Source of the DNA: a virus
Taxonomy: Duplodnaviria; Heunggongvirae; Uroviricota; Caudoviricetes
DNA length: 21,959 nucleotides
Virus record (IMG/VR): IMGVR_UViG_3300045988_117647
Location: 1-21,959 of that record
Reading direction: 5' to 3' (one strand)
The position numbers and the translations under genes are program-made. The first letter of the stretch is position 1. Each line of letters opens with the position of its first letter. Positions 55-19,804 of the stretch are shown one piece after another. Under the pieces are notes generated by a model that was not told the DNA's origin, searched no databases, and saw only the letters and a list, made by a program, of their open reading frames with translations.

Positions 55-198
55 TACAACGGGAAAAAATTTACGTATCCGGTCGCTGATGAGTGGAGTT
101 GGTTTTATTGTTATTCAGAGCAATAAACATCTGATTTAATTTGTTGCATAATAGTAAAATTGCTGTTTATCTACATGTGGTAACTATTGATAATTATG

Positions 199-226
199 TT
201 GCTAATAATGTGTGCAAATTTATACT
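199..226 (+). promoter_or_regulatory. Possible sigma70-like promoter for the island-1 ORF (-35 TTGCTA 199-204, 16-nt spacer, -10 TATACT 221-226)
   Basis: Hexamers read directly; the implied leader to the ATG at 243 is very short and would overlap the AAGGTG RBS, so the call is weak. Read-through from IS1 is an alternative. Confidence 0.2.
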
Positions 227-242
227 GAAAAAGGTGAAAACG

Positions 243-2075
243 ATGAATGATATCTTTGTTCTTACAAGGGAAGAGCTTGAAACACTAGATTATAGTGTTT
301 TTATGCATATACCAGTTACATTTCATGCACATAAAATAAAAAAATATCTGGATGGGATTGCTGAATCATCAGAAAACCCCAAAGAGAAAAAATTAGCATC
401 TCTTTTTGGTATGCTATATAGTTTCAATTTGCAAGTTGTTAACAACACTCCATCATTTGAACCCCAAATGATTTGGGGTAATAAAAGATCAATATTGCCT
501 GAAGATTTTGATGAGCAGGTGAATGATTGTCTTTTATATGTTTCTCAAAAAATAACCAATCCATTTTTGTTATCAAGAATATATGATGTTGTTTGGTGTA
601 ATAATCGGAAAAATAAAGACGTGGCAATTAAAGCAATTGATTCCTATGCTGAAATGCTAAATATAGCAATTGAAAGACTAATAATAAAAAACGAAAGCAT
701 GGATGAAAGTGATTTAAATTGCTTTATTTTTGCTCGTGATTATATTGCTAGGGCTTTGCACATTAATAAAATGGTCTACCCTAGAAAATCAGAAGGAAAC
801 ATGGCGATTAAAAATGCCATTCATTCTCTTTATAGTATTCAAAATGAAAGATTAATCTTTGAAGGTTTCAATAATTTGACTTGGTTTATGGTGCGTGATT
901 TTGATGGGGATAATCTGCAGTATGCGGAAAATGCTGAGAAGATGGCTGAGCAGCATAAAGATAAAAAATATTATGATGCTGTAAAATCACTTTATATGAC
1001 AAGTGCAGTTATTTATGAAAAAAATGGTGAGTCTGAACGTGCCAAGAGATGTAAACTGGCATCTGCAAATATTACTATTAAAGTTGCAACAGATCGACCT
1101 GATAATATGGGTAAGATCTCTTGGTTAAGAACAGCTATCTCTGAATTAAGACAGTACGGTGGTGATAGCCAACAGATAGAAGATTTAAAGGAACAACTTG
1201 CTAATTTGAGAGAAGAAGTAAGGAGTGAATATGTCACTTTAAGCCATTCTATTGATATTAGTGACTTGGTTGCTGAAAGTGAAAAAAAACTGACGGGGCG
1301 TTCTTTGCCCGATATATTCAAAGTTTTAATGCGTGAAACACCGATTGAAAATATTGAAAGCATGAGGGAGCAAGTTTTAAGATTATCAGAAAAAAGTTTA
1401 TTCTCTAGTTTTGTTGGAACAGAAATTAATGATGAGAGTGGGCGTAAGGTATATACAATCCCGCCGTTGGATAATAAAAAAGATATGAGTGATGATGTTG
1501 TTATTGATCAATATCTAAGAAATTTCGAGATTACTCATAAGATTTTTGTAAACGGTGTCTTTGAACCTGCTCGCTATGTACTTTCTCAAGAACATGGCTT
1601 GACGTTGTCAACATTCGTTAAATTAGTTACAACTAGTCCAATTGTCAAGCCGGAGTTTAGGGAGATTTTTAATTTGGGCTTTTACAAATTATGGCAGGGA
1701 GATTACATCAGTGCAGCTTATCTTTTAATACCACAAATGGAAGGTATGGTTCGTTATTATTATGAGCTTAGTGGAAAGGATGCTACTAGATATTTGGATA
1801 AGGGATTAGAGGAGTCAACAAGTATTTCTCAGCTTCTAGATAAATGCAGAGATGATTTGGAAAGTATCTTTTCTAAGAATCTTGTTTTAACTATCGATGT
1901 TCTTTTTAATAGAAAGAGTGGGGCAACCTTAAGACATAAATTAGCACATGGTAATTTATATACTAATGCTTGTTACGATGAAACAACGACATATGCATGC
2001 ATCCTGATTTTCTTTCTGTGTGCTTATCCTCTCCTACCATATTTTGATACTGTATTTGAACAGGGCTCTGTTTGA
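243..2075 (+). CDS. Hypothetical 611-aa AT-rich cargo protein; candidate anti-phage or abortive-infection protein with C-terminal R-x4-H-G (HEPN-like) motif RHKLAHG at nt 1932-1952
   Basis: Long uninterrupted ORF (track 141-2075) in visibly AT-rich DNA. I take the ATG at 243 (MNDIFVL...), preceded by AAGGTG at 231-236, as the start. No Walker A/B or TOPRIM motif seen, so it is not an Old-type ATPase. Position is the old/tin locus of P2. Confidence 0.8.
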   Translation: MNDIFVLTREELETLDYSVFMHIPVTFHAHKIKKYLDGIAESSENPKEKKLASLFGMLYSFNLQVVNNTPSFEPQMIWGNKRSILPEDFDEQVNDCLLYVSQKITNPFLLSRIYDVVWCNNRKNKDVAIKAIDSYAEMLNIAIERLIIKNESMDESDLNCFIFARDYIARALHINKMVYPRKSEGNMAIKNAIHSLYSIQNERLIFEGFNNLTWFMVRDFDGDNLQYAENAEKMAEQHKDKKYYDAVKSLYMTSAVIYEKNGESERAKRCKLASANITIKVATDRPDNMGKISWLRTAISELRQYGGDSQQIEDLKEQLANLREEVRSEYVTLSHSIDISDLVAESEKKLTGRSLPDIFKVLMRETPIENIESMREQVLRLSEKSLFSSFVGTEINDESGRKVYTIPPLDNKKDMSDDVVIDQYLRNFEITHKIFVNGVFEPARYVLSQEHGLTLSTFVKLVTTSPIVKPEFREIFNLGFYKLWQGDYISAAYLLIPQMEGMVRYYYELSGKDATRYLDKGLEESTSISQLLDKCRDDLESIFSKNLVLTIDVLFNRKSGATLRHKLAHGNLYTNACYDETTTYACILIFFLCAYPLLPYFDTVFEQGSV

Positions 2076-14088: not shown

Positions 14089-15954
14089 ATGAGCACAAAA
14101 TTCAGAACCGTTATCACCACTGCCGGTGCAGCAAAGCTGGCAGCGGCAACCGCACCGGGAGGGCGGAAGGTCAACATTACCACGATGGCCGTCGGGGATG
14201 GCGGTGGTAAATTGCCTGTCCCGGATGCCGGACAGACCGGACTTATCCATGAAGTCTGGCGACATGCGCTGAACAAAATCAGCCAGGACAAACGAAACAG
14301 TAATTATATTATCGCAGAGCTGGTTATTCCGCCGGAGGTGGGCGGTTTCTGGATGCGAGAGCTTGGCCTGTACGATGATGCGGGAACGTTAATTGCCGTG
14401 GCGAACATGGCCGAAAGTTATAAACCTGCCCTTGCCGAAGGCTCAGGGCGTTCGCAGACCTGCCGCATGGTCATCATCGTCAGCAGTGTGGCCTCAGTGG
14501 AGCTGACTATTGACACCACAACGGTGATGGCAACGCAGGATTACGTTGATGACAAAATTGCAGAACATGAACAGTCACGACGTCACCCTGACGCCTCGCT
14601 GACCGCAAAAGGTTTTACTCAGTTAAGCAGTGCGACCAACAGCACTTCTGAAACACTGGCTGCAACGCCGAAAGCGGTAAAGGCCGCCTATGACCTTGCT
14701 AACGGGAAATACACTGCACAGGACGCCACCACAGCGCGAAAAGGTCTTGTCCAGCTCAGTAGTGCCACCAACAGCACGTCTGAAACGCTCGCCGCAACAC
14801 CAAAAGCGGTAAAAGCAGCATATGACCTTGCTAACGGGAAATATACCGCACAGGACGCCACCACAGCGCGAAAAGGCCTTGTTCAGCTCAGTAGCGCCAC
14901 CAACAGTGATTCGGAAACGCTGGCAGCAACACCAAAAGCGGTGAAGTCTGCCTATGACAATGCTGAAAAACGTCTTCAGAAAGATCAGAACGGTGCGGAT
15001 ATTCCTGATAAAAGATTATTCCTGCGCAATATTGGTGCAACAAATTCAACAACCATGTCTTTTAGTGGTGGTACAGGATGGTTCAGGCTGGCAACTGTAA
15101 CCATGCCACAGGCCAGTTCCGTGGTTTACATAAGTCTGATTGGTGGTGCTGGATATAATGTTAACTCCCCTATGCAGGCTGGTATATCTGAACTTGTTCT
15201 TCGTGCGGGAAATGGAAATCCAAAAGGTCTTACTGGTGCGTTATGGCGACGGACATCGGTTGGATTTACTAATTTTGCATGGGTGAATACATCCGGTGAT
15301 ACCTATGATGTTTATGTTGAAATAGGTAATTACGCCACAGGTGTTAATATTCAGTGGGATTATACCAGTAACGCCAGCGTAACGATTCATACATCGCCAT
15401 CTTATACAGCGAATAAACCAACAGGTCTTACAGATGGAACTGTATATGTAATTTACAGTTCGCACATTAAACCGACTGCTGCTGATGTTGGGGCGTTGTC
15501 ATTATCTGGAGGTCAATTGAATGGTGCACTGGGCATCGGAACATCCAGTGTTCTTGGCGGTAACTCAATTGTTTTGGGTGATAATGACACGGGCTTTAAA
15601 CAAAATGGTGACGGTAATCTGGATGTTTATGCTAATAACGTTCATGTTATGCGCTTTGTCTCCGGTAGCATTCAAAGTAATAAAACCATAAATATTACGG
15701 GTCGTGTTAATCCCACAGATTACGGTAACTTTGATTCCCGCTATGTCCGGGATATCCGGCTTGGTGGTGCTGCCACATACAAACCTGCGAACAATGGCAT
15801 GACATGGACACATCAGGCACCGTCCGGGTGTGTATATTCCGGCATTATTATTCAGGATACCGGCTCAAACTCTGCCGATAACATTGGTGGCGTATATTAC
15901 AGACCGGTGCAGAAATACATTAACGGGACATGGTATAACGTGGCGCAGGTATAA
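14089..15954 (+). CDS. H: Tail fibre protein (P2 gpH-like but shorter, 621 aa), with internal tandem repeats and an AT-richer C-terminal part
   Basis: Position after I; GAGG RBS; 44-aa repeats containing SATNS..ETLAATPKAVK, which resemble the phage tail-fibre repeat motif; composition changes after about 15000. Confidence 0.85.
   Translation: MSTKFRTVITTAGAAKLAAATAPGGRKVNITTMAVGDGGGKLPVPDAGQTGLIHEVWRHALNKISQDKRNSNYIIAELVIPPEVGGFWMRELGLYDDAGTLIAVANMAESYKPALAEGSGRSQTCRMVIIVSSVASVELTIDTTTVMATQDYVDDKIAEHEQSRRHPDASLTAKGFTQLSSATNSTSETLAATPKAVKAAYDLANGKYTAQDATTARKGLVQLSSATNSTSETLAATPKAVKAAYDLANGKYTAQDATTARKGLVQLSSATNSDSETLAATPKAVKSAYDNAEKRLQKDQNGADIPDKRLFLRNIGATNSTTMSFSGGTGWFRLATVTMPQASSVVYISLIGGAGYNVNSPMQAGISELVLRAGNGNPKGLTGALWRRTSVGFTNFAWVNTSGDTYDVYVEIGNYATGVNIQWDYTSNASVTIHTSPSYTANKPTGLTDGTVYVIYSSHIKPTAADVGALSLSGGQLNGALGIGTSSVLGGNSIVLGDNDTGFKQNGDGNLDVYANNVHVMRFVSGSIQSNKTINITGRVNPTDYGNFDSRYVRDIRLGGAATYKPANNGMTWTHQAPSGCVYSGIIIQDTGSNSADNIGGVYYRPVQKYINGTWYNVAQV
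14611..14964 (+). repeat. Three tandem copies (two complete, third partial) of a 132-bp coding repeat inside H
   Basis: Copies start at 14611 and 14743 and are near-identical at DNA level; the third (from 14875) diverges after about 90 bp. Confidence 0.85.
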
Positions 15955-15957
15955 TTT

Positions 15958-16485
15958 ATGCAGCATTTAAAAAATATTACGGCGGGTAATCCAAAAACGG
16001 TTGAACAATATCAATTGACAAAGGGCTTTGATGTTGTCTGGTTTTTTACAGAAGATGGTAAGAACTGGTACGAAGAACAAAAGTATTTTGCTGATGACAC
16101 GATAAAAATAGCGTACGACAAAGATAATATCATCCGCTATGTGGAAAAGGATGTGACAGCTATCAGACCGGATGGATTAAGTGTGGTTGAAGTGGCGGAT
16201 ATTACTGCTAACCGACGTGCGGATATTTCAGGGGGCTGGATGTTTAAGGACGGCAAAGTGATTAAACGCATTTATACGGCAGAGGAATTACAGCAGCAGG
16301 CAGAAATTCGGAAAGCCAGACTTCTTGCAGATGCTGAATCCGTGATTTTGCCGCTGGAGCGCGCGGTCAGACTGAACATGGCAACAGAGGAGGAGCGCAC
16401 ACGGCTGGAGGCTTGGGAACGCTACAGCGTTCTGGTCAGTCGTGTGGATCCTGCAAATCCTGAATGGCCGGAAATGCCGCAATAA
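15958..16485 (+). CDS. G: Tail fibre assembly protein (P2 gpG-like), 175 aa
   Basis: Length and position immediately after H. Confidence 0.8.
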
Positions 16486-16520: not shown

Positions 16521-16560
16521 GGCACAGAGTAAAGCCTAATCTGACAGTCCGCTCTGTGCC
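16521..16560. repeat. Inverted repeat GGCACAGAG-n22-CTCTGTGCC at the boundary between G and AT-rich island 2
   Basis: Perfect 9-bp arms read directly; no T-run follows on either strand, so it is not called a terminator. Confidence 0.4.
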
Positions 16561-16738
16561 AAAAGCGGGCGTTGATCACATGGGCTATGCTAACCCATTA
16601 TAACAGTGTAACAGAGCTACCCACGATTACTCCCGGCCTCTAAAGTTTGCTACATAATAAAGAATCATTCCCTTTAATCTGATCTTAGCGGTATAGTATC
16701 TGGTGACCAGTAAGATAATCACCGACACTACAATCATG

Positions 16739-16766
16739 TTGATTTGCATTGTGTTTAGTCTAAAAT
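16739..16766 (+). promoter_or_regulatory. Candidate sigma70 promoter for the island-2 genes (-35 TTGATT 16739-16744, 16-nt spacer, -10 TAAAAT 16761-16766)
   Basis: Hexamers read directly, about 50 nt upstream of a strong RBS (AAGGAGG 16803-16809) and the ATG at 16816. Confidence 0.35.
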
Positions 16767-16815
16767 TGTGGTGCGAAAAGACCAATGAAAGTTATTGATA
16801 ATAAGGAGGAATCAA

Positions 16816-17598
16816 ATGTCAGGAATAAGATGGTTGGATAAAAAAGATTTAATTCTTAAAGGAATAAATGAAGGCACCTACCCAGAATCAGTTTACAAGT
16901 TCAGAACTATAGATAAAGCCAGTGATATTCTTCAAAAAAAGAATTTTACTTTTCATCAGCGGAAAATTTTAATGATCCATTTGATTGTATGCTGGATGAG
17001 GAAAAAGAATACTCTTTATCAGACTTTAATTGTTGGTTATATTTATATCAGAATGGATTAACCAAGAAGGCAAAGCAGAACTTAATAGATGTGTATAAAG
17101 AAAACAGCCAAGCATTTAATGATCTAGTTAAAAATATAAAAACAAAAGCCGTCAATGCCCATGGCATTTTATCGCTATCTAAAACTAATGAAAATATTCT
17201 TTTATGGTCTCATTATGCGGAGAACCATACCGGAGTTGCTATAAAACTCAATATTGCTAAGGATCCAGAGTTCTTTATAACCCCCCAAAACATAGTATAT
17301 GAAGCAATATATTCCATTAAATTATCTTAGAGACTCTAAAAAATCAATACTCGACACACTCTCTACGAAATCAATGGATTGGAATTATGAAGAGGAGATT
17401 AGAGTTTATAAAAGTAATATTGGAGCCTATAAGATTAAGCCAGAGGCAATAACTGATGTTTTTTTTGGTTTGAAAACGCTGGAACAGGATATTGCAAAAA
17501 TCAAAAATATATGTAGTGAAAATGGTCTAAGCCATGTGAAGTTTCATCGGGCTGAAAAAAAATATGGAGAATTTGCGCTACGTTTTAATCCTATTTGA
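16816..17598 (+). pseudogene. DUF2971-like gene interrupted by two compensating frameshifts (frame change within the A7 run at 16934-16940, then back between 17296 and 17330)
   Basis: Three ORF pieces (16795-17061, 16989-17330, 17299-17598) join into one DUF2971-like product: ...YKFRTIDKASDILQKK / EFYFSSAENFNDPFDC...LLWSHYAENHTGVAIK... / ...SMDWNYEEEIRVYKS. The first and third pieces share a frame. Family assignment is from recalled motifs. Confidence 0.6.
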
Positions 17599-17684
17599 CT
17601 TTTCTATTTAGTAGTTAAATGATAGTGCATTACGAGCCAATTAAATTTAATTCTATGGTTGTGTAGACAATAAAAGGTAACTAG

Positions 17685-18170
17685 ATGAATCAAGATGAGT
17701 TAAAAAATTTTTGTGTTGATGTGCGCGAAGCACTTGAGAAGATGACCAAAAAAGATCATTCACGGCTGTCATCTTTTGGAAATTCGAACTTTCCAGTGGG
17801 ATGCTGCGGAGATACATCGAAACTGCTTGCTTATTTACTTTATCAGCAATTCGGGATAGTCTCTGAAGTACTCGCAGGATGTTACTATGAATCTGATCAT
17901 AAGTCCCCCGCCAGCGGTCTTTCAAACGGTAATTCACATGCTTGGCTTGTCGTGGATGGAATGATTGTTGATTTGACTGCAGATCAGTTCAACGACCGGG
18001 GATATAACAATCTTCCCGTCATGATTACATCAGACACTAGGTTTCATGACCTCTTTGCCAATCGTAATGCCTTGTTTCAACCTTCTCAAGGTAATGAAAT
18101 TATTCTACCTGATATTCTAAAAATGACAGCATCACATGTGCAGCAAAGGCTTAAAGAGCGAGGTTGGTAA
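17685..18170 (+). CDS. Hypothetical 161-aa protein with Cys-His-Asp arrangement (C40/C41 in GCCGD, H85 in SHAWLVVDG, D96/D100 in IVDLTAD) suggestive of a transglutaminase-like or papain-like cysteine peptidase fold
   Basis: Clean ORF in AT-rich DNA with AAAGG RBS; the motif HAWLVVDG-IVDLTAD resembles the His-Asp segment of transglutaminase-like domains. Inference only. Confidence 0.65.
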   Translation: MNQDELKNFCVDVREALEKMTKKDHSRLSSFGNSNFPVGCCGDTSKLLAYLLYQQFGIVSEVLAGCYYESDHKSPASGLSNGNSHAWLVVDGMIVDLTADQFNDRGYNNLPVMITSDTRFHDLFANRNALFQPSQGNEIILPDILKMTASHVQQRLKERGW

Positions 18171-18487
18171 TACGGGTGCAGCAGAATCTAAAGCTGATAC
18201 TTAAAATTATATAGGAAGAGCATAAACTTATCCTAAATCTGGCTGTAATAGATCCTTTCATATATCGGCCAGATTAATATGAAGTAATCCAAATTAGTGT
18301 CTGAAAATATAATCAGCTCCATAACAATAGATTTATCGCTTAAAAATAACGTCAACATGAGGGTAGAAAACATCCCTAAAGATAAGTCTGGTCTAACCTT
18401 TGCTCCTCGCTCAAAGCAGACTGTCAGAATTGATAGCGTTTGGGCTATGTAAATTGTCAGTCGGAAAATGAGTGAGTACAAATCAGG

Positions 18488-18515
18488 ACAGGCGGGCGAA
18501 TTGCCCGCCTTTTCT
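18488..18515 (+). terminator. Rho-independent terminator (GGCGGGC-GAAT-TGCCCGCC followed by TTTTCTTTATC), plus-strand orientation
   Basis: Hairpin and T-run read directly; lies about 320 nt after the 161-aa gene and about 100 nt before FI. Confidence 0.6.
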
Positions 18516-18613
18516 TTATCTGTTGTTTCATCCACTGACCAGTCAGGTCAAATAGCGTCTCATGCTCTGCACAACAGAAAATAGCTGCACCCATTAACCA
18601 CGGAGTTAAACGG

Positions 18614-19804
18614 ATGAGTGACTATCATCACGGCGTGCAGGTGCTGGAAATTAACGACGGCACCCGTGTCATTTCCACCGTATCCACTGCCATTGTCGGC
18701 ATGGTCTGCACGGCCAGCGATGCGGATGCGGAAACCTTCCCCCTCAATAAACCTGTGCTGATTACCAATGTGCAGAGCGCAATTGCAAAGGCCGGTAAAA
18801 AAGGCTCGCTGGCGGCATCGTTGCAGGCCATCGCCGACCAGTCAAAACCGGTCACCGTTGTCGTGCGTGTGGAAGACGGCACCGGCGACGACGAAGAAAC
18901 GAAACTTGCGCAGACCGTTTCCAATATTATCGGCACCACCGACGAAAACGGTCAGTACACCGGACTGAAAGCCCTGCTGGCGGCGGAATCGGTAACCGGT
19001 GTTAAACCGCGTATTCTCGGTGTGCCGGGGCTGGATACCAAAGAGGTGGCTGTTGCACTGGCATCAGTCTGTCAGAAGCTGCGCGCTTTCGGGTATATCA
19101 GCGCATGGGGCTGTAAGACCATTTCCGAGGTGAAAGCTTACCGCCAGAATTTCAGCCAGCGTGAGCTGATGGTCATCTGGCCGGATTTCCTCGCATGGGA
19201 TACGGTCACCAGTACCACCGCCACCGCGTATGCCACTGCCCGTGCACTGGGCCTGCGCGCTAAAATCGACCAGGAGCAGGGCTGGCATAAAACGCTGTCC
19301 AATGTCGGGGTGAACGGTGTTACCGGCATCAGCGCATCTGTATTCTGGGATTTGCAGGAGTCCGGCACCGATGCTGACCTGCTGAACGAGTCAGGTGTCA
19401 CAACGCTGATTCGCCGTGACGGTTTCCGCTTCTGGGGTAACCGTACCTGCTCTGATGACCCGCTGTTCCTCTTTGAAAACTACACCCGCACCGCGCAGGT
19501 GCTGGCCGACACGATGGCTGAGGCGCACATGTGGGCGGTGGACAAGCCCATCACCGCAACGCTGATTCGCGACATCGTTGACGGCATCAATGCCAAATTC
19601 CGTGAGCTGAAAACAAACGGCTATATCGTGGATGCGACCTGCTGGTTCAGCGAAGAATCCAACGATGCGGAAACCCTCAAGGCCGGAAAATTGTATATCG
19701 ACTACGACTATACACCGGTGCCTCCTCTCGAAAACCTGACCCTGCGCCAGCGTATTACCGATAAATACCTGGCAAATCTGGTCACCTCGGTTAACAGCAA
19801 TTAA
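18614..19804 (+). CDS. FI: Contractile tail sheath protein (P2 FI-like), 396 aa
   Basis: Length and synteny with P2 FI; GGAG RBS. Confidence 0.9.
   Translation: MSDYHHGVQVLEINDGTRVISTVSTAIVGMVCTASDADAETFPLNKPVLITNVQSAIAKAGKKGSLAASLQAIADQSKPVTVVVRVEDGTGDDEETKLAQTVSNIIGTTDENGQYTGLKALLAAESVTGVKPRILGVPGLDTKEVAVALASVCQKLRAFGYISAWGCKTISEVKAYRQNFSQRELMVIWPDFLAWDTVTSTTATAYATARALGLRAKIDQEQGWHKTLSNVGVNGVTGISASVFWDLQESGTDADLLNESGVTTLIRRDGFRFWGNRTCSDDPLFLFENYTRTAQVLADTMAEAHMWAVDKPITATLIRDIVDGINAKFRELKTNGYIVDATCWFSEESNDAETLKAGKLYIDYDYTPVPPLENLTLRQRITDKYLANLVTSVNSN

What the first reader, a model, noticed from the sequence alone, without database searches (positions are those of the whole stretch)
16816..17598. 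DUF2971-like gene split by two compensating frameshifts
The recognisable DUF2971-type motifs lie in three ORF pieces. The frame changes inside an A7 homopolymer (16934-16940), where an A8 run would restore ...ILQKKEFYFSSAENFNDPFDC..., and changes back between 17296 and 17330, with a C6 run just upstream. The net shift is zero, so either the middle 360 nt is genuinely out of frame (a pseudogene or a slippage-prone, phase-variable gene) or these are homopolymer sequencing errors.
Basis: seen in the sequence. Interest (0 to 1): 0.6.

Follow-up and report, generated by a model that had tools for sequence, protein, structure and literature searches.

The report
Frameshifted prophage defence gene (pseudogene)
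A candidate anti-phage toxin gene carried by a P2-like prophage has been knocked out by two small repeat-slippage deletions that are real and inherited, not sequencing errors, so it is an ordinary though well-documented pseudogene.

Summary
Positions 16816-17598 carry one DUF2971 gene in three frame pieces (frames 1, 0, 1). Alignment with the intact 786-nt (261-aa) gene of E. coli NCTC9008 shows exactly two lesions. One is A8->A7 at 16934-16940 (-1). The other is (TA)3->(TA)2 at 17296-17300 (-2). The C6 run is unchanged.

The deletions sum to -3, but they do not compensate. The start-codon frame meets 10 stops in the 360-nt middle piece.

This is not an artefact. The same A7+(TA)2 haplotype, with 0-1 SNPs, occurs in 14 further assemblies from at least 12 samples. 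One copy has a further 8-bp deletion. Over 19.6 kb of prophage, no other gene carries a frame-breaking indel.

Intact homologues are single 261-aa genes in Escherichia, Klebsiella, Serratia and Providencia. They match PADLOC candidate PDC-S31 and fold like DarT/Tpt1 ADP-ribosyltransferases. Each of the three conserved motifs lies in a different piece, so no piece can be active alone.

The gene sits in AT-rich cargo between the tail-fibre-assembly and tail-sheath genes. Other lineages carry different slippage frameshifts in the same gene, so it is a recurrent mutational target. I found no support for phase variation or programmed recoding.

Verdict: a single-origin pseudogene, of low interest.

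The parts
16739..16766 (+). Sigma-70-like promoter candidate (TTGATT-16-TAAAAT) upstream of the gene
   Evidence: Consensus scan only, 9 of 12 matches. Weak evidence.
16803..16818 (+). Shine-Dalgarno AAGGAGG (16803-16809) and native start codon ATG (16816-16818)
   Evidence: Read directly from the sequence. The same start is annotated in intact homologues.
16816..16941 (+). Piece 1: native codons 1-42 (frame 1). It includes the conserved YKFR motif (aa 27-30). Translation then runs out of frame to the stop at 17059-17061, giving an 81-aa product.
16934..16940 (+). Lesion 1: A7 homopolymer, where intact alleles have A8 (-1). Positions 16935-16941 form the slippery heptamer A_AAA_AAG in the upstream frame.
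   Evidence: Alignment A1; allele table.
16941..17300 (+). Piece 2: native codons 43-162 (frame 0, 360 nt). It holds the invariant NDP (53-55) and WSHYA (131-135) motifs. This frame then runs on to the stop at 17328-17330.
17281..17286 (+). C6 run, unchanged in this allele. It is C5 in one other allele (L021).
17296..17300 (+). Lesion 2: TATAT, where intact alleles have TATATAT. One TA unit is lost (-2).
   Evidence: Alignment A1; allele table.
17299..17598 (+). Piece 3: native codons 163-261 plus the stop (frame 1). It holds the invariant K186, W190, E193-x-E195 and R197. No Shine-Dalgarno sequence precedes its ATG.
17555..17562 (+). Third slippage tract (A8), intact here. It is A9 (258-aa product) or A7 (265-aa product) in other E. 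coli lineages.
17685..18170 (+). Intact downstream gene (161 aa) with a transglutaminase/papain-like fold and invariant Cys40/41, His85 and Asp96/100. It is a frequent but separable neighbour of the DUF2971 gene.
18490..18519 (+). Intrinsic terminator-like hairpin (9-bp stem, 7 GC pairs) with a T-rich tail, closing the AT-rich cargo segment before the tail sheath gene (18614-19804)

Best explanation
The region is a pseudogene of a prophage-borne candidate defence gene. That gene is a 261-aa DUF2971 / PADLOC PDC-S31 protein with a DarT/Tpt1-like ADP-ribosyltransferase fold. It lies in the AT-rich cargo slot between the tail-fibre-assembly gene and the tail-sheath gene of a P2-like prophage of E. 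coli. Two replication-slippage deletions in simple repeats, A8->A7 and (TA)3->(TA)2, arose in one ancestor and have since been inherited together. Ribosomes starting at the native ATG stop after 81 residues. The three conserved ART motifs (YKFR in piece 1; NDP and WSHYA in piece 2; ExE in piece 3) are now in different frames, so no active enzyme can be made. Shown here: the lesions, their reality, their single origin, the intact single-gene state of homologues, the fold, and the motif positions. Inferred: the slippage mechanism, the loss of function, and the anti-phage role of the intact gene.
Against: No raw reads were available, so minority A8 or (TA)3 variants within a population cannot be excluded. 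The first lesion leaves a classic slippery heptamer, so some leakage into the correct frame is possible. No intermediate single-lesion allele of this haplotype was found, so the order of events is unknown. The anti-phage function of this subfamily has not been tested; PDC-S31 is only a candidate.
Confidence: 0.85

Rival explanations
1. Adaptive inactivation. The intact ART is costly or autotoxic, so loss-of-function alleles are selected. The A7 frameshift is leaky and easily reverted, because A_AAA_AAG allows -1 ribosomal slippage and the A-run allows polymerase slippage. A second hit downstream was therefore selected to lock the gene off. This is a refinement of the pseudogene reading, not an alternative to it.
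For: Independent frameshift alleles recur in the same gene in other lineages: site 3 A9 in 11 contigs, site 3 A7 in 10 contigs, and site 1 A9 in L020. The only other A7 allele seen (L021) also carries a second downstream frameshift (C5), whereas the A9 allele, which -1 slippage cannot rescue, has one lesion only. The allele has persisted across many samples while the rest of the prophage stays intact. Abortive-infection toxins are known to be costly (general knowledge; Aristaios is an Abi system, PMC11381338).
Against: The pattern rests on two A7 alleles and one A9 allele. L021 and L020 are single Logan assemblies of unknown sequencing platform, and both L021 lesions are homopolymer contractions, which could be read errors. 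About 85-90% of contigs carry the intact gene, so it is not generally counter-selected. Two hits in hypermutable tracts are also expected under neutral decay.
Confidence: 0.2
2. Phase-variable contingency gene. The repeat tracts are evolved ON/OFF switches, and the window shows a reversible OFF state.
For: Four simple tracts inside the ORF (A8, C6, (TA)3, A8) all show length variants in natural alleles. The intact gene has three runs of 8 or more bases.
Against: All 14 other copies of this haplotype share the same A7+(TA)2 state, as do all intact-haplotype copies (A8+(TA)3). Turning this allele ON needs two independent reversions. The site-1 tract does not exist in the Klebsiella, Serratia or Providencia orthologues (QSLE and QNFQ in place of QKKE). 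Tract count is no more than borderline against synonymous-codon shuffles (P=0.05). A7-A8 and three-unit TA tracts are far shorter than typical contingency tracts (general knowledge).
Confidence: 0.05
3. Programmed recoding. Full-length protein is made by -1 ribosomal frameshifting, or transcriptional slippage, at A_AAA_AAG (16935-16941), followed by a -2 slip of tRNA-Tyr on UAUAU (17296-17300). Both events would restore the exact wild-type amino-acid sequence.
For: The heptamer is in the right register, and A_AAA_AAG is the dnaX/IS911-type slippery site (general knowledge). Both slips would regenerate ...QKKEF... and ...VYMKQ... exactly, as read from the sequence.
Against: There is no upstream SD-like stimulator. 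The downstream hairpin is weak (-13.7 kcal/mol, z -1.7). No structure lies near the second site (z -0.8). A -2 shift at a non-stimulated site is very inefficient. Homologues use one continuous ORF, so the arrangement is not conserved. The restored sequence is an automatic consequence of any repeat contraction.
Confidence: 0.03
4. Sequencing or assembly artefact: homopolymer miscalls in an AT-rich region.
For: One lesion is in an A-run. The gene is 31% GC and is often broken at contig ends in draft assemblies, as shown by many 'partial' proteins.
Against: The identical state is found in 14 further assemblies from ENA, JGI, NCBI and Logan, linked to private SNPs. The second lesion is a dinucleotide deletion. 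Other A7, A8 and T8 runs in the window do not break ORFs. The same data sources also yield the intact allele.
Confidence: 0.02

Closest known systems
PADLOC phage-defence candidate PDC-S31 / Pfam DUF2971 (PF11185)
   Same: The intact allele matches the PDC-S31 HMM PDLC04990 over nearly its full length (E=6.7e-47) and passes the PF11185 gathering score. It sits in a prophage cargo slot next to another PADLOC candidate, PDC-S39, at 141-2075.
   Different: The window copy is broken into three frame pieces, and the Pfam-matching stretch (aa 130-198) spans the second lesion. PDC-S31 is itself an untested candidate. No paper in the searchable library mentions it.
DarT (DarTG toxin-antitoxin) and Tpt1/KptA nucleic-acid ADP-ribosyltransferases
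   Different: Sequence identity is only 9-17%. There are large helical inserts. No DarG macrodomain antitoxin is adjacent. The neighbour is a transglutaminase-fold protein and is missing in Providencia. Substrate and activity are unknown.
Aristaios, a single-gene DUF2971 abortive-infection system from a Lactococcus plasmid (PMC11381338)
   Same: It shares the Pfam domain, the predicted ART fold, a single-protein architecture and a mobile-element location.
   Different: Aristaios is 316 aa and comes from Firmicutes. The window copy is inactivated.
Slipped-strand frameshift pseudogenes and phase-variable contingency genes
   Same: Indels lie in a mononucleotide and a dinucleotide repeat inside an ORF, and tract-length variants occur among natural alleles.
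   Different: The tracts are short and not conserved across genera. The allele state is fixed in every copy of the haplotype. Two reversions would be needed to switch ON.
P2 cargo genes such as old, tin and Z/fun at the variable loci of P2-like phages (PMC9122126, PMC13586616; Z/fun position from general knowledge of P2)
   Same: The gene is AT-rich cargo between the tail-fibre-assembly gene (15958-16485) and the sheath gene (18614-19804), with a second cargo gene upstream of the portal gene.
   Different: A 2026 survey reports that pseudogenes recognisable as defence genes are rare in P2-like prophages (about 2% of pseudogenes; PMC13586616). This locus is one of those uncommon cases.

Membership tests
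Pfam DUF2971 (PF11185) | HMM score at or above the gathering threshold (22 bits) | tested here: met
   25.7 bits, E=3e-5, aa 130-198 of the intact NCTC9008 allele, which is 99% identical to the window pieces. In the window that stretch is split by lesion 2.
PADLOC PDC-S31 | Full-length match to a PDC-S31 HMM | tested here: met
   PDLC04990, E=6.7e-47, aa 23-259 against profile positions 6-256 of 259, for the intact allele.
PADLOC PDC-S31 | Confers phage resistance | not testable with these tools
   This is a candidate system only, and no literature hit was found.
ADP-ribosyltransferase superfamily (DarT/Tpt1-like) | ART beta-sandwich fold | tested here: met
ADP-ribosyltransferase superfamily (DarT/Tpt1-like) | Conserved catalytic motifs (H/R, Y, E/ExE) | tested here: inconclusive
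   Y134, E193 and E195 are invariant in 46 homologues, and YK[FY]R is in the family consensus. The assignment to motifs follows PMC12522546 and was not checked by structural superposition of residues.
ADP-ribosyltransferase superfamily (DarT/Tpt1-like) | NAD+-dependent transferase activity | not testable with these tools
   Needs biochemistry.
DarTG toxin-antitoxin system | Adjacent macrodomain antitoxin (DarG) | tested here: not met
   The downstream gene has a transglutaminase/papain-like fold and no Pfam macro domain. The Providencia orthologue has no partner at all.
Phase-variable contingency locus | Simple-sequence tract inside the ORF whose length changes shift the frame | tested here: met
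   A8/A7/A9, C6/C5, (TA)3/(TA)2 and A8/A7/A9 variants.
Phase-variable contingency locus | Tract-length heterogeneity among otherwise identical copies (rapid, reversible switching) | tested here: not met
   All 14 other copies of the haplotype are A7+(TA)2, and all intact-haplotype copies are A8+(TA)3. Within-sample heterogeneity could not be tested.
Phase-variable contingency locus | Tracts enriched beyond composition and conserved in orthologues | tested here: inconclusive
   P=0.05 for three or more runs of 8 or more bases in 20,000 synonymous-codon shuffles. The site-1 tract is absent in Klebsiella and Serratia, while the T8 run and the 3' A8 run are partly conserved.
Programmed -1 ribosomal frameshift | In-register slippery heptamer X_XXY_YYZ | tested here: met
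   A_AAA_AAG at 16935-16941 with zero-frame codons AAA AAG.
Programmed -1 ribosomal frameshift | Stimulatory element (upstream SD-like sequence or downstream stable structure) | tested here: not met
   No GGAG-like sequence lies upstream. The downstream hairpin is -13.7 kcal/mol with z -1.7, and 10 of 200 shuffles fold as well.
Programmed -1 ribosomal frameshift | Two-frame arrangement conserved in homologues | tested here: not met
   Homologues in at least four genera are single continuous 261-aa ORFs.

The most novel reading that the evidence does not exclude
The double lesion may not be neutral decay. It could record selection against a leaky toxin. After A8->A7, the A_AAA_AAG heptamer would still let a few percent of ribosomes, or slipped transcripts, make active ART. 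A second frameshift was then selected to silence it fully. The gene's slippage tracts would then act as a cheap, recurrent off-switch for a costly abortive-infection toxin in P2-like prophages. This would go against the reported rarity of defence pseudogenes at P2 hotspots.
Probability: 0.06. Interest if true: 0.5.

Novelty: new member of a known kind. Interest (0 to 1): 0.2.

Why it matters
The main value is for annotation. The three 'hypothetical proteins' called at this locus in public assemblies are fragments of one dead DUF2971/PDC-S31 gene, and tools that count defence systems should not score them as a system. The locus is also a clean, naturally replicated example of a recognisable defence-candidate pseudogene inside an otherwise intact P2-like prophage. 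A 2026 survey reports that state as rare (PMC13586616). The intact and dead alleles differ by only two SNPs and two indels. They therefore form a ready-made isogenic pair for testing whether this DarT/Tpt1-like protein defends against phage and whether it is costly. Nothing here challenges current understanding.

Tried and rejected
- Sequencing error was rejected, because independent assemblies carry the same haplotype and no other coding indels appear in the window.
- 'Three normally separate genes' was rejected by the 261-aa homologues in several genera.
- 'Compensating frameshifts giving a protein with a shifted middle' was rejected, because that frame has 10 stops.
- I looked for single-lesion intermediates of this haplotype (A7+(TA)3 or A8+(TA)2). 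None appeared among cluster members or fetched loci. The partial proteins of 161-229 aa turned out to be contig-end truncations of intact alleles.
- PRF stimulators: the folds are not significant.
- Homopolymer enrichment is borderline (P=0.05).
- An obligate toxin-antitoxin pairing with the downstream gene was rejected. The partner is absent in Providencia. In Citrobacter its homologue follows an unrelated 144-aa gene (hhalign probability 0.1%).
- Several searches found nothing: DNA of the cargo against the phage collection; a 35-mer against IMG/VR; a 29-mer against GTDB species representatives; NCBIfam; literature for 'PDC-S31'; and a contig look-up of P0113.
- tblastn against isolated phages gave only distant hits, at most 28% identity.

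Full report
**Observation**

The region 16816-17598 holds three overlapping ORF pieces in frames 1, 0 and 1.

A megablast of 16600-18300 against 5,426 complete E. coli genomes found 12 genomes with the locus. All of those matches were 3 or 4 bases longer than the query. In NCTC9008 the gene is annotated as one 786-nt 'DUF2971 domain-containing protein'.

A three-way alignment shows that the window differs from that intact gene by two SNPs and exactly two deletions:
- One A is lost from an A8 run (16934-16940).
- One TA unit is lost from GTATATATG, leaving GTATATG (TATAT at 17296-17300).

The deletions sum to -3, so the 3' piece returns to the start-codon frame and the out-of-frame middle is exactly 360 nt (codons 43-162). 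They do not compensate in any functional sense. The start-codon frame meets 10 stop codons in the middle piece, the first at 17059-17061.

**Real mutation or artefact**

Exact-sequence look-ups of the 113-aa and 99-aa pieces returned contigs from ENA, JGI, NCBI and Logan assemblies, mostly gut metagenomes by record name. One more came from a pattern scan of metagenome contigs (L028).

In all 14 loci the tracts are A7, C6, TATAT and A8. Across 16600-18300 these loci differ from the window by 0-1 SNPs. They do differ in the flanking tail-fibre repeats and, in L015, in the sheath and tube genes.

The look-up with the 99-aa piece did not constrain the A-run, yet every hit had A7. L008 has an additional 8-bp deletion at 16857-16864.

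Against the related KKo009 prophage, aligned over 19.6 kb at 97% identity, the only other indels are one intergenic base and a set of offsetting single- and two-base gaps (net zero) in a diverged stretch of the tape-measure gene. Every other P2 late gene in the window is open.

The lesions are therefore genuine, inherited and of single origin. Sequencing error is excluded for practical purposes.

**What the gene is**

The intact allele passes the Pfam DUF2971 threshold (25.7 against 22 bits; the match, aa 130-198, straddles lesion 2). It also matches PADLOC candidate PDC-S31 over its full length (E=6.7e-47).

Homologues are single 261-aa ORFs in E. coli (roughly 280 contigs for the listed intact variants), Klebsiella variicola (74% identity), Serratia quinivorans (72%) and Providencia vermicola (60%). 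So the three segments are normally one gene.

Residues invariant across the family are N53-D54-P55, W131-S-H-Y-A135 and G140 in piece 2, and K186, W190, E193, E195, R197 and G219 in piece 3. The conserved YK[FY]R lies in piece 1. Each frame piece thus carries one of the three ART motifs. Pieces 2 and 3 have no Shine-Dalgarno sequence before their first ATG. Loss of function is the straightforward inference.

**Context**

The window is the late region of a P2-like prophage, running from portal, terminase and capsid through baseplate, tail fibre, sheath and tube. The gene and its 161-aa neighbour lie in a 31-38% GC island, against a 54-60% GC backbone. The island sits between the tail-fibre-assembly gene and the sheath gene. 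It has a promoter-like site upstream and a strong terminator-like hairpin at 18490-18510.

A second AT-rich cargo gene (141-2075; DUF7380+DUF4209; PADLOC PDC-S39, E=5.7e-85) lies upstream of the portal gene. That position is the hotspot described by Rousset et al. (PMC9122126).

**The neighbour**

It follows the DUF2971 gene at the same spacing in Klebsiella and Serratia, in unrelated genomic contexts. It is absent next to the Providencia orthologue. In Citrobacter its 48%-identical homologue follows an unrelated 144-aa gene. It is therefore a frequent but separable neighbour, not an obligate antitoxin.

**Slippage-prone, but not shown to be phase-variable**

Other natural alleles carry different tract changes:
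- A9 in the third run (17555-17562 here): a 258-aa product, 11 contigs, including four GPEC genomes.
- A7 in the third run: a 265-aa product, 10 contigs.
- A9 at site 1 (L020).
- A7 plus C5 on a different background (L021).

Roughly one copy in eight is frameshifted at one of four simple tracts. That estimate is rough, because only 15 of 57 cluster members were listed, and L020 and L021 are single assemblies of unknown platform.

Several points argue against an evolved switch:
- The haplotype is invariant in all 14 copies.
- Two reversions would be needed to turn the gene ON.
- The site-1 tract is missing in other genera.
- The number of runs of 8 or more bases is only borderline against synonymous-codon shuffles (P=0.05).

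**Recoding**

The A7 allele places A_AAA_AAG (16935-16941) in register. A -1 slip there, and a -2 slip of tRNA-Tyr on UAUAU, would each regenerate the wild-type peptide. That is automatic for any repeat contraction. There is no SD-like stimulator, the downstream hairpin is not significant (z -1.7), and the arrangement is not conserved.

**Comparison with what is known, and verdict**

Frameshift pseudogenes produced by slipped-strand mispairing are commonplace. What is mildly notable is the setting. A 2026 survey of P2 and P4 elements found pseudogenes recognisable as defence genes to be rare (about 2% of P2 pseudogenes). It argued that defences are swapped before they decay (PMC13586616). This allele is one of the exceptions, and it has persisted in many hosts with the prophage late region otherwise intact.

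I rate it a new member of a known kind, with low interest (0.2). The most novel reading not excluded is selected silencing of a leaky toxin. It rests on two or three alleles and gets about 6%.

Noticed in passing
window 141-2075 (+): A 644-aa AT-rich (31-35% GC) cargo gene lies upstream of the portal gene. It matches Pfam DUF7380 (2.7e-39) plus a weak DUF4209 hit, and PADLOC candidate PDC-S39 (5.7e-85). It sits at the cos-proximal gpA-gpQ hotspot of P2-like phages. It is intact despite A7 and A8 runs at 338, 1018 and 1282.
   Followed up: partly
window 17685-18170 (+): This 161-aa gene has a transglutaminase/papain-like fold and invariant Cys-Cys, His and Asp residues. It is restricted to Enterobacterales (24 clusters). 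It accompanies the DUF2971 gene in E. coli, Klebsiella and Serratia, but not in Providencia, and it pairs with a different upstream gene in Citrobacter. Its function is unknown, it has no PADLOC hit, and it belongs to phrog_26734.
   Followed up: partly
window 14629-14958 (+), inside tail fibre gene 14089-15954: A 132-nt (44-aa) tandem repeat is present at 2.5 copies and 86% identity. Copy number differs between related prophages: the tail fibre is 621 aa here, 665 aa in GPEC464/KKo009 and 709 aa in NCTC9008. Most SNP differences among the carrier loci fall here.
   Followed up: partly
L002 5259-7561 (E. coli GPEC464); also KOr024 and other genomes: In several related prophages an IS21-family ISEc12 element (istA/istB) is inserted between the cargo terminator and the tail sheath gene. 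The window lacks this insertion.
   Followed up: no
L008 (JGI 3300029782), equivalent to window 16857-16864: One carrier of the same allele has an additional 8-bp deletion in piece 1. This fits continuing decay of the dead gene.
   Followed up: yes
Protein clusters (P0076-P0097): Many NCBI draft E. coli assemblies end inside this gene: N-terminal 'partial' proteins of 126-229 aa and C-terminal ones of 62-102 aa. This suggests poor coverage or assembly breaks in the 31% GC gene. An IS insertion in some strains was not excluded.
   Followed up: no
L021 (SRR28036842) and L020 (SRR33116888): Two further frameshift alleles were seen: A7 plus C5 on a GPEC-like background, and A9 alone at site 1. If real, A8->A7 has arisen twice independently. 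The sequencing platform is unknown, so read error is not excluded.
   Followed up: partly
window 16521-16560 (+): An inverted repeat, GGCACAGAG...CTCTGTGCC, lies just after the tail-fibre-assembly gene. It marks the boundary between the phage backbone and the AT-rich cargo and may be a terminator or a recombination boundary.
   Followed up: no
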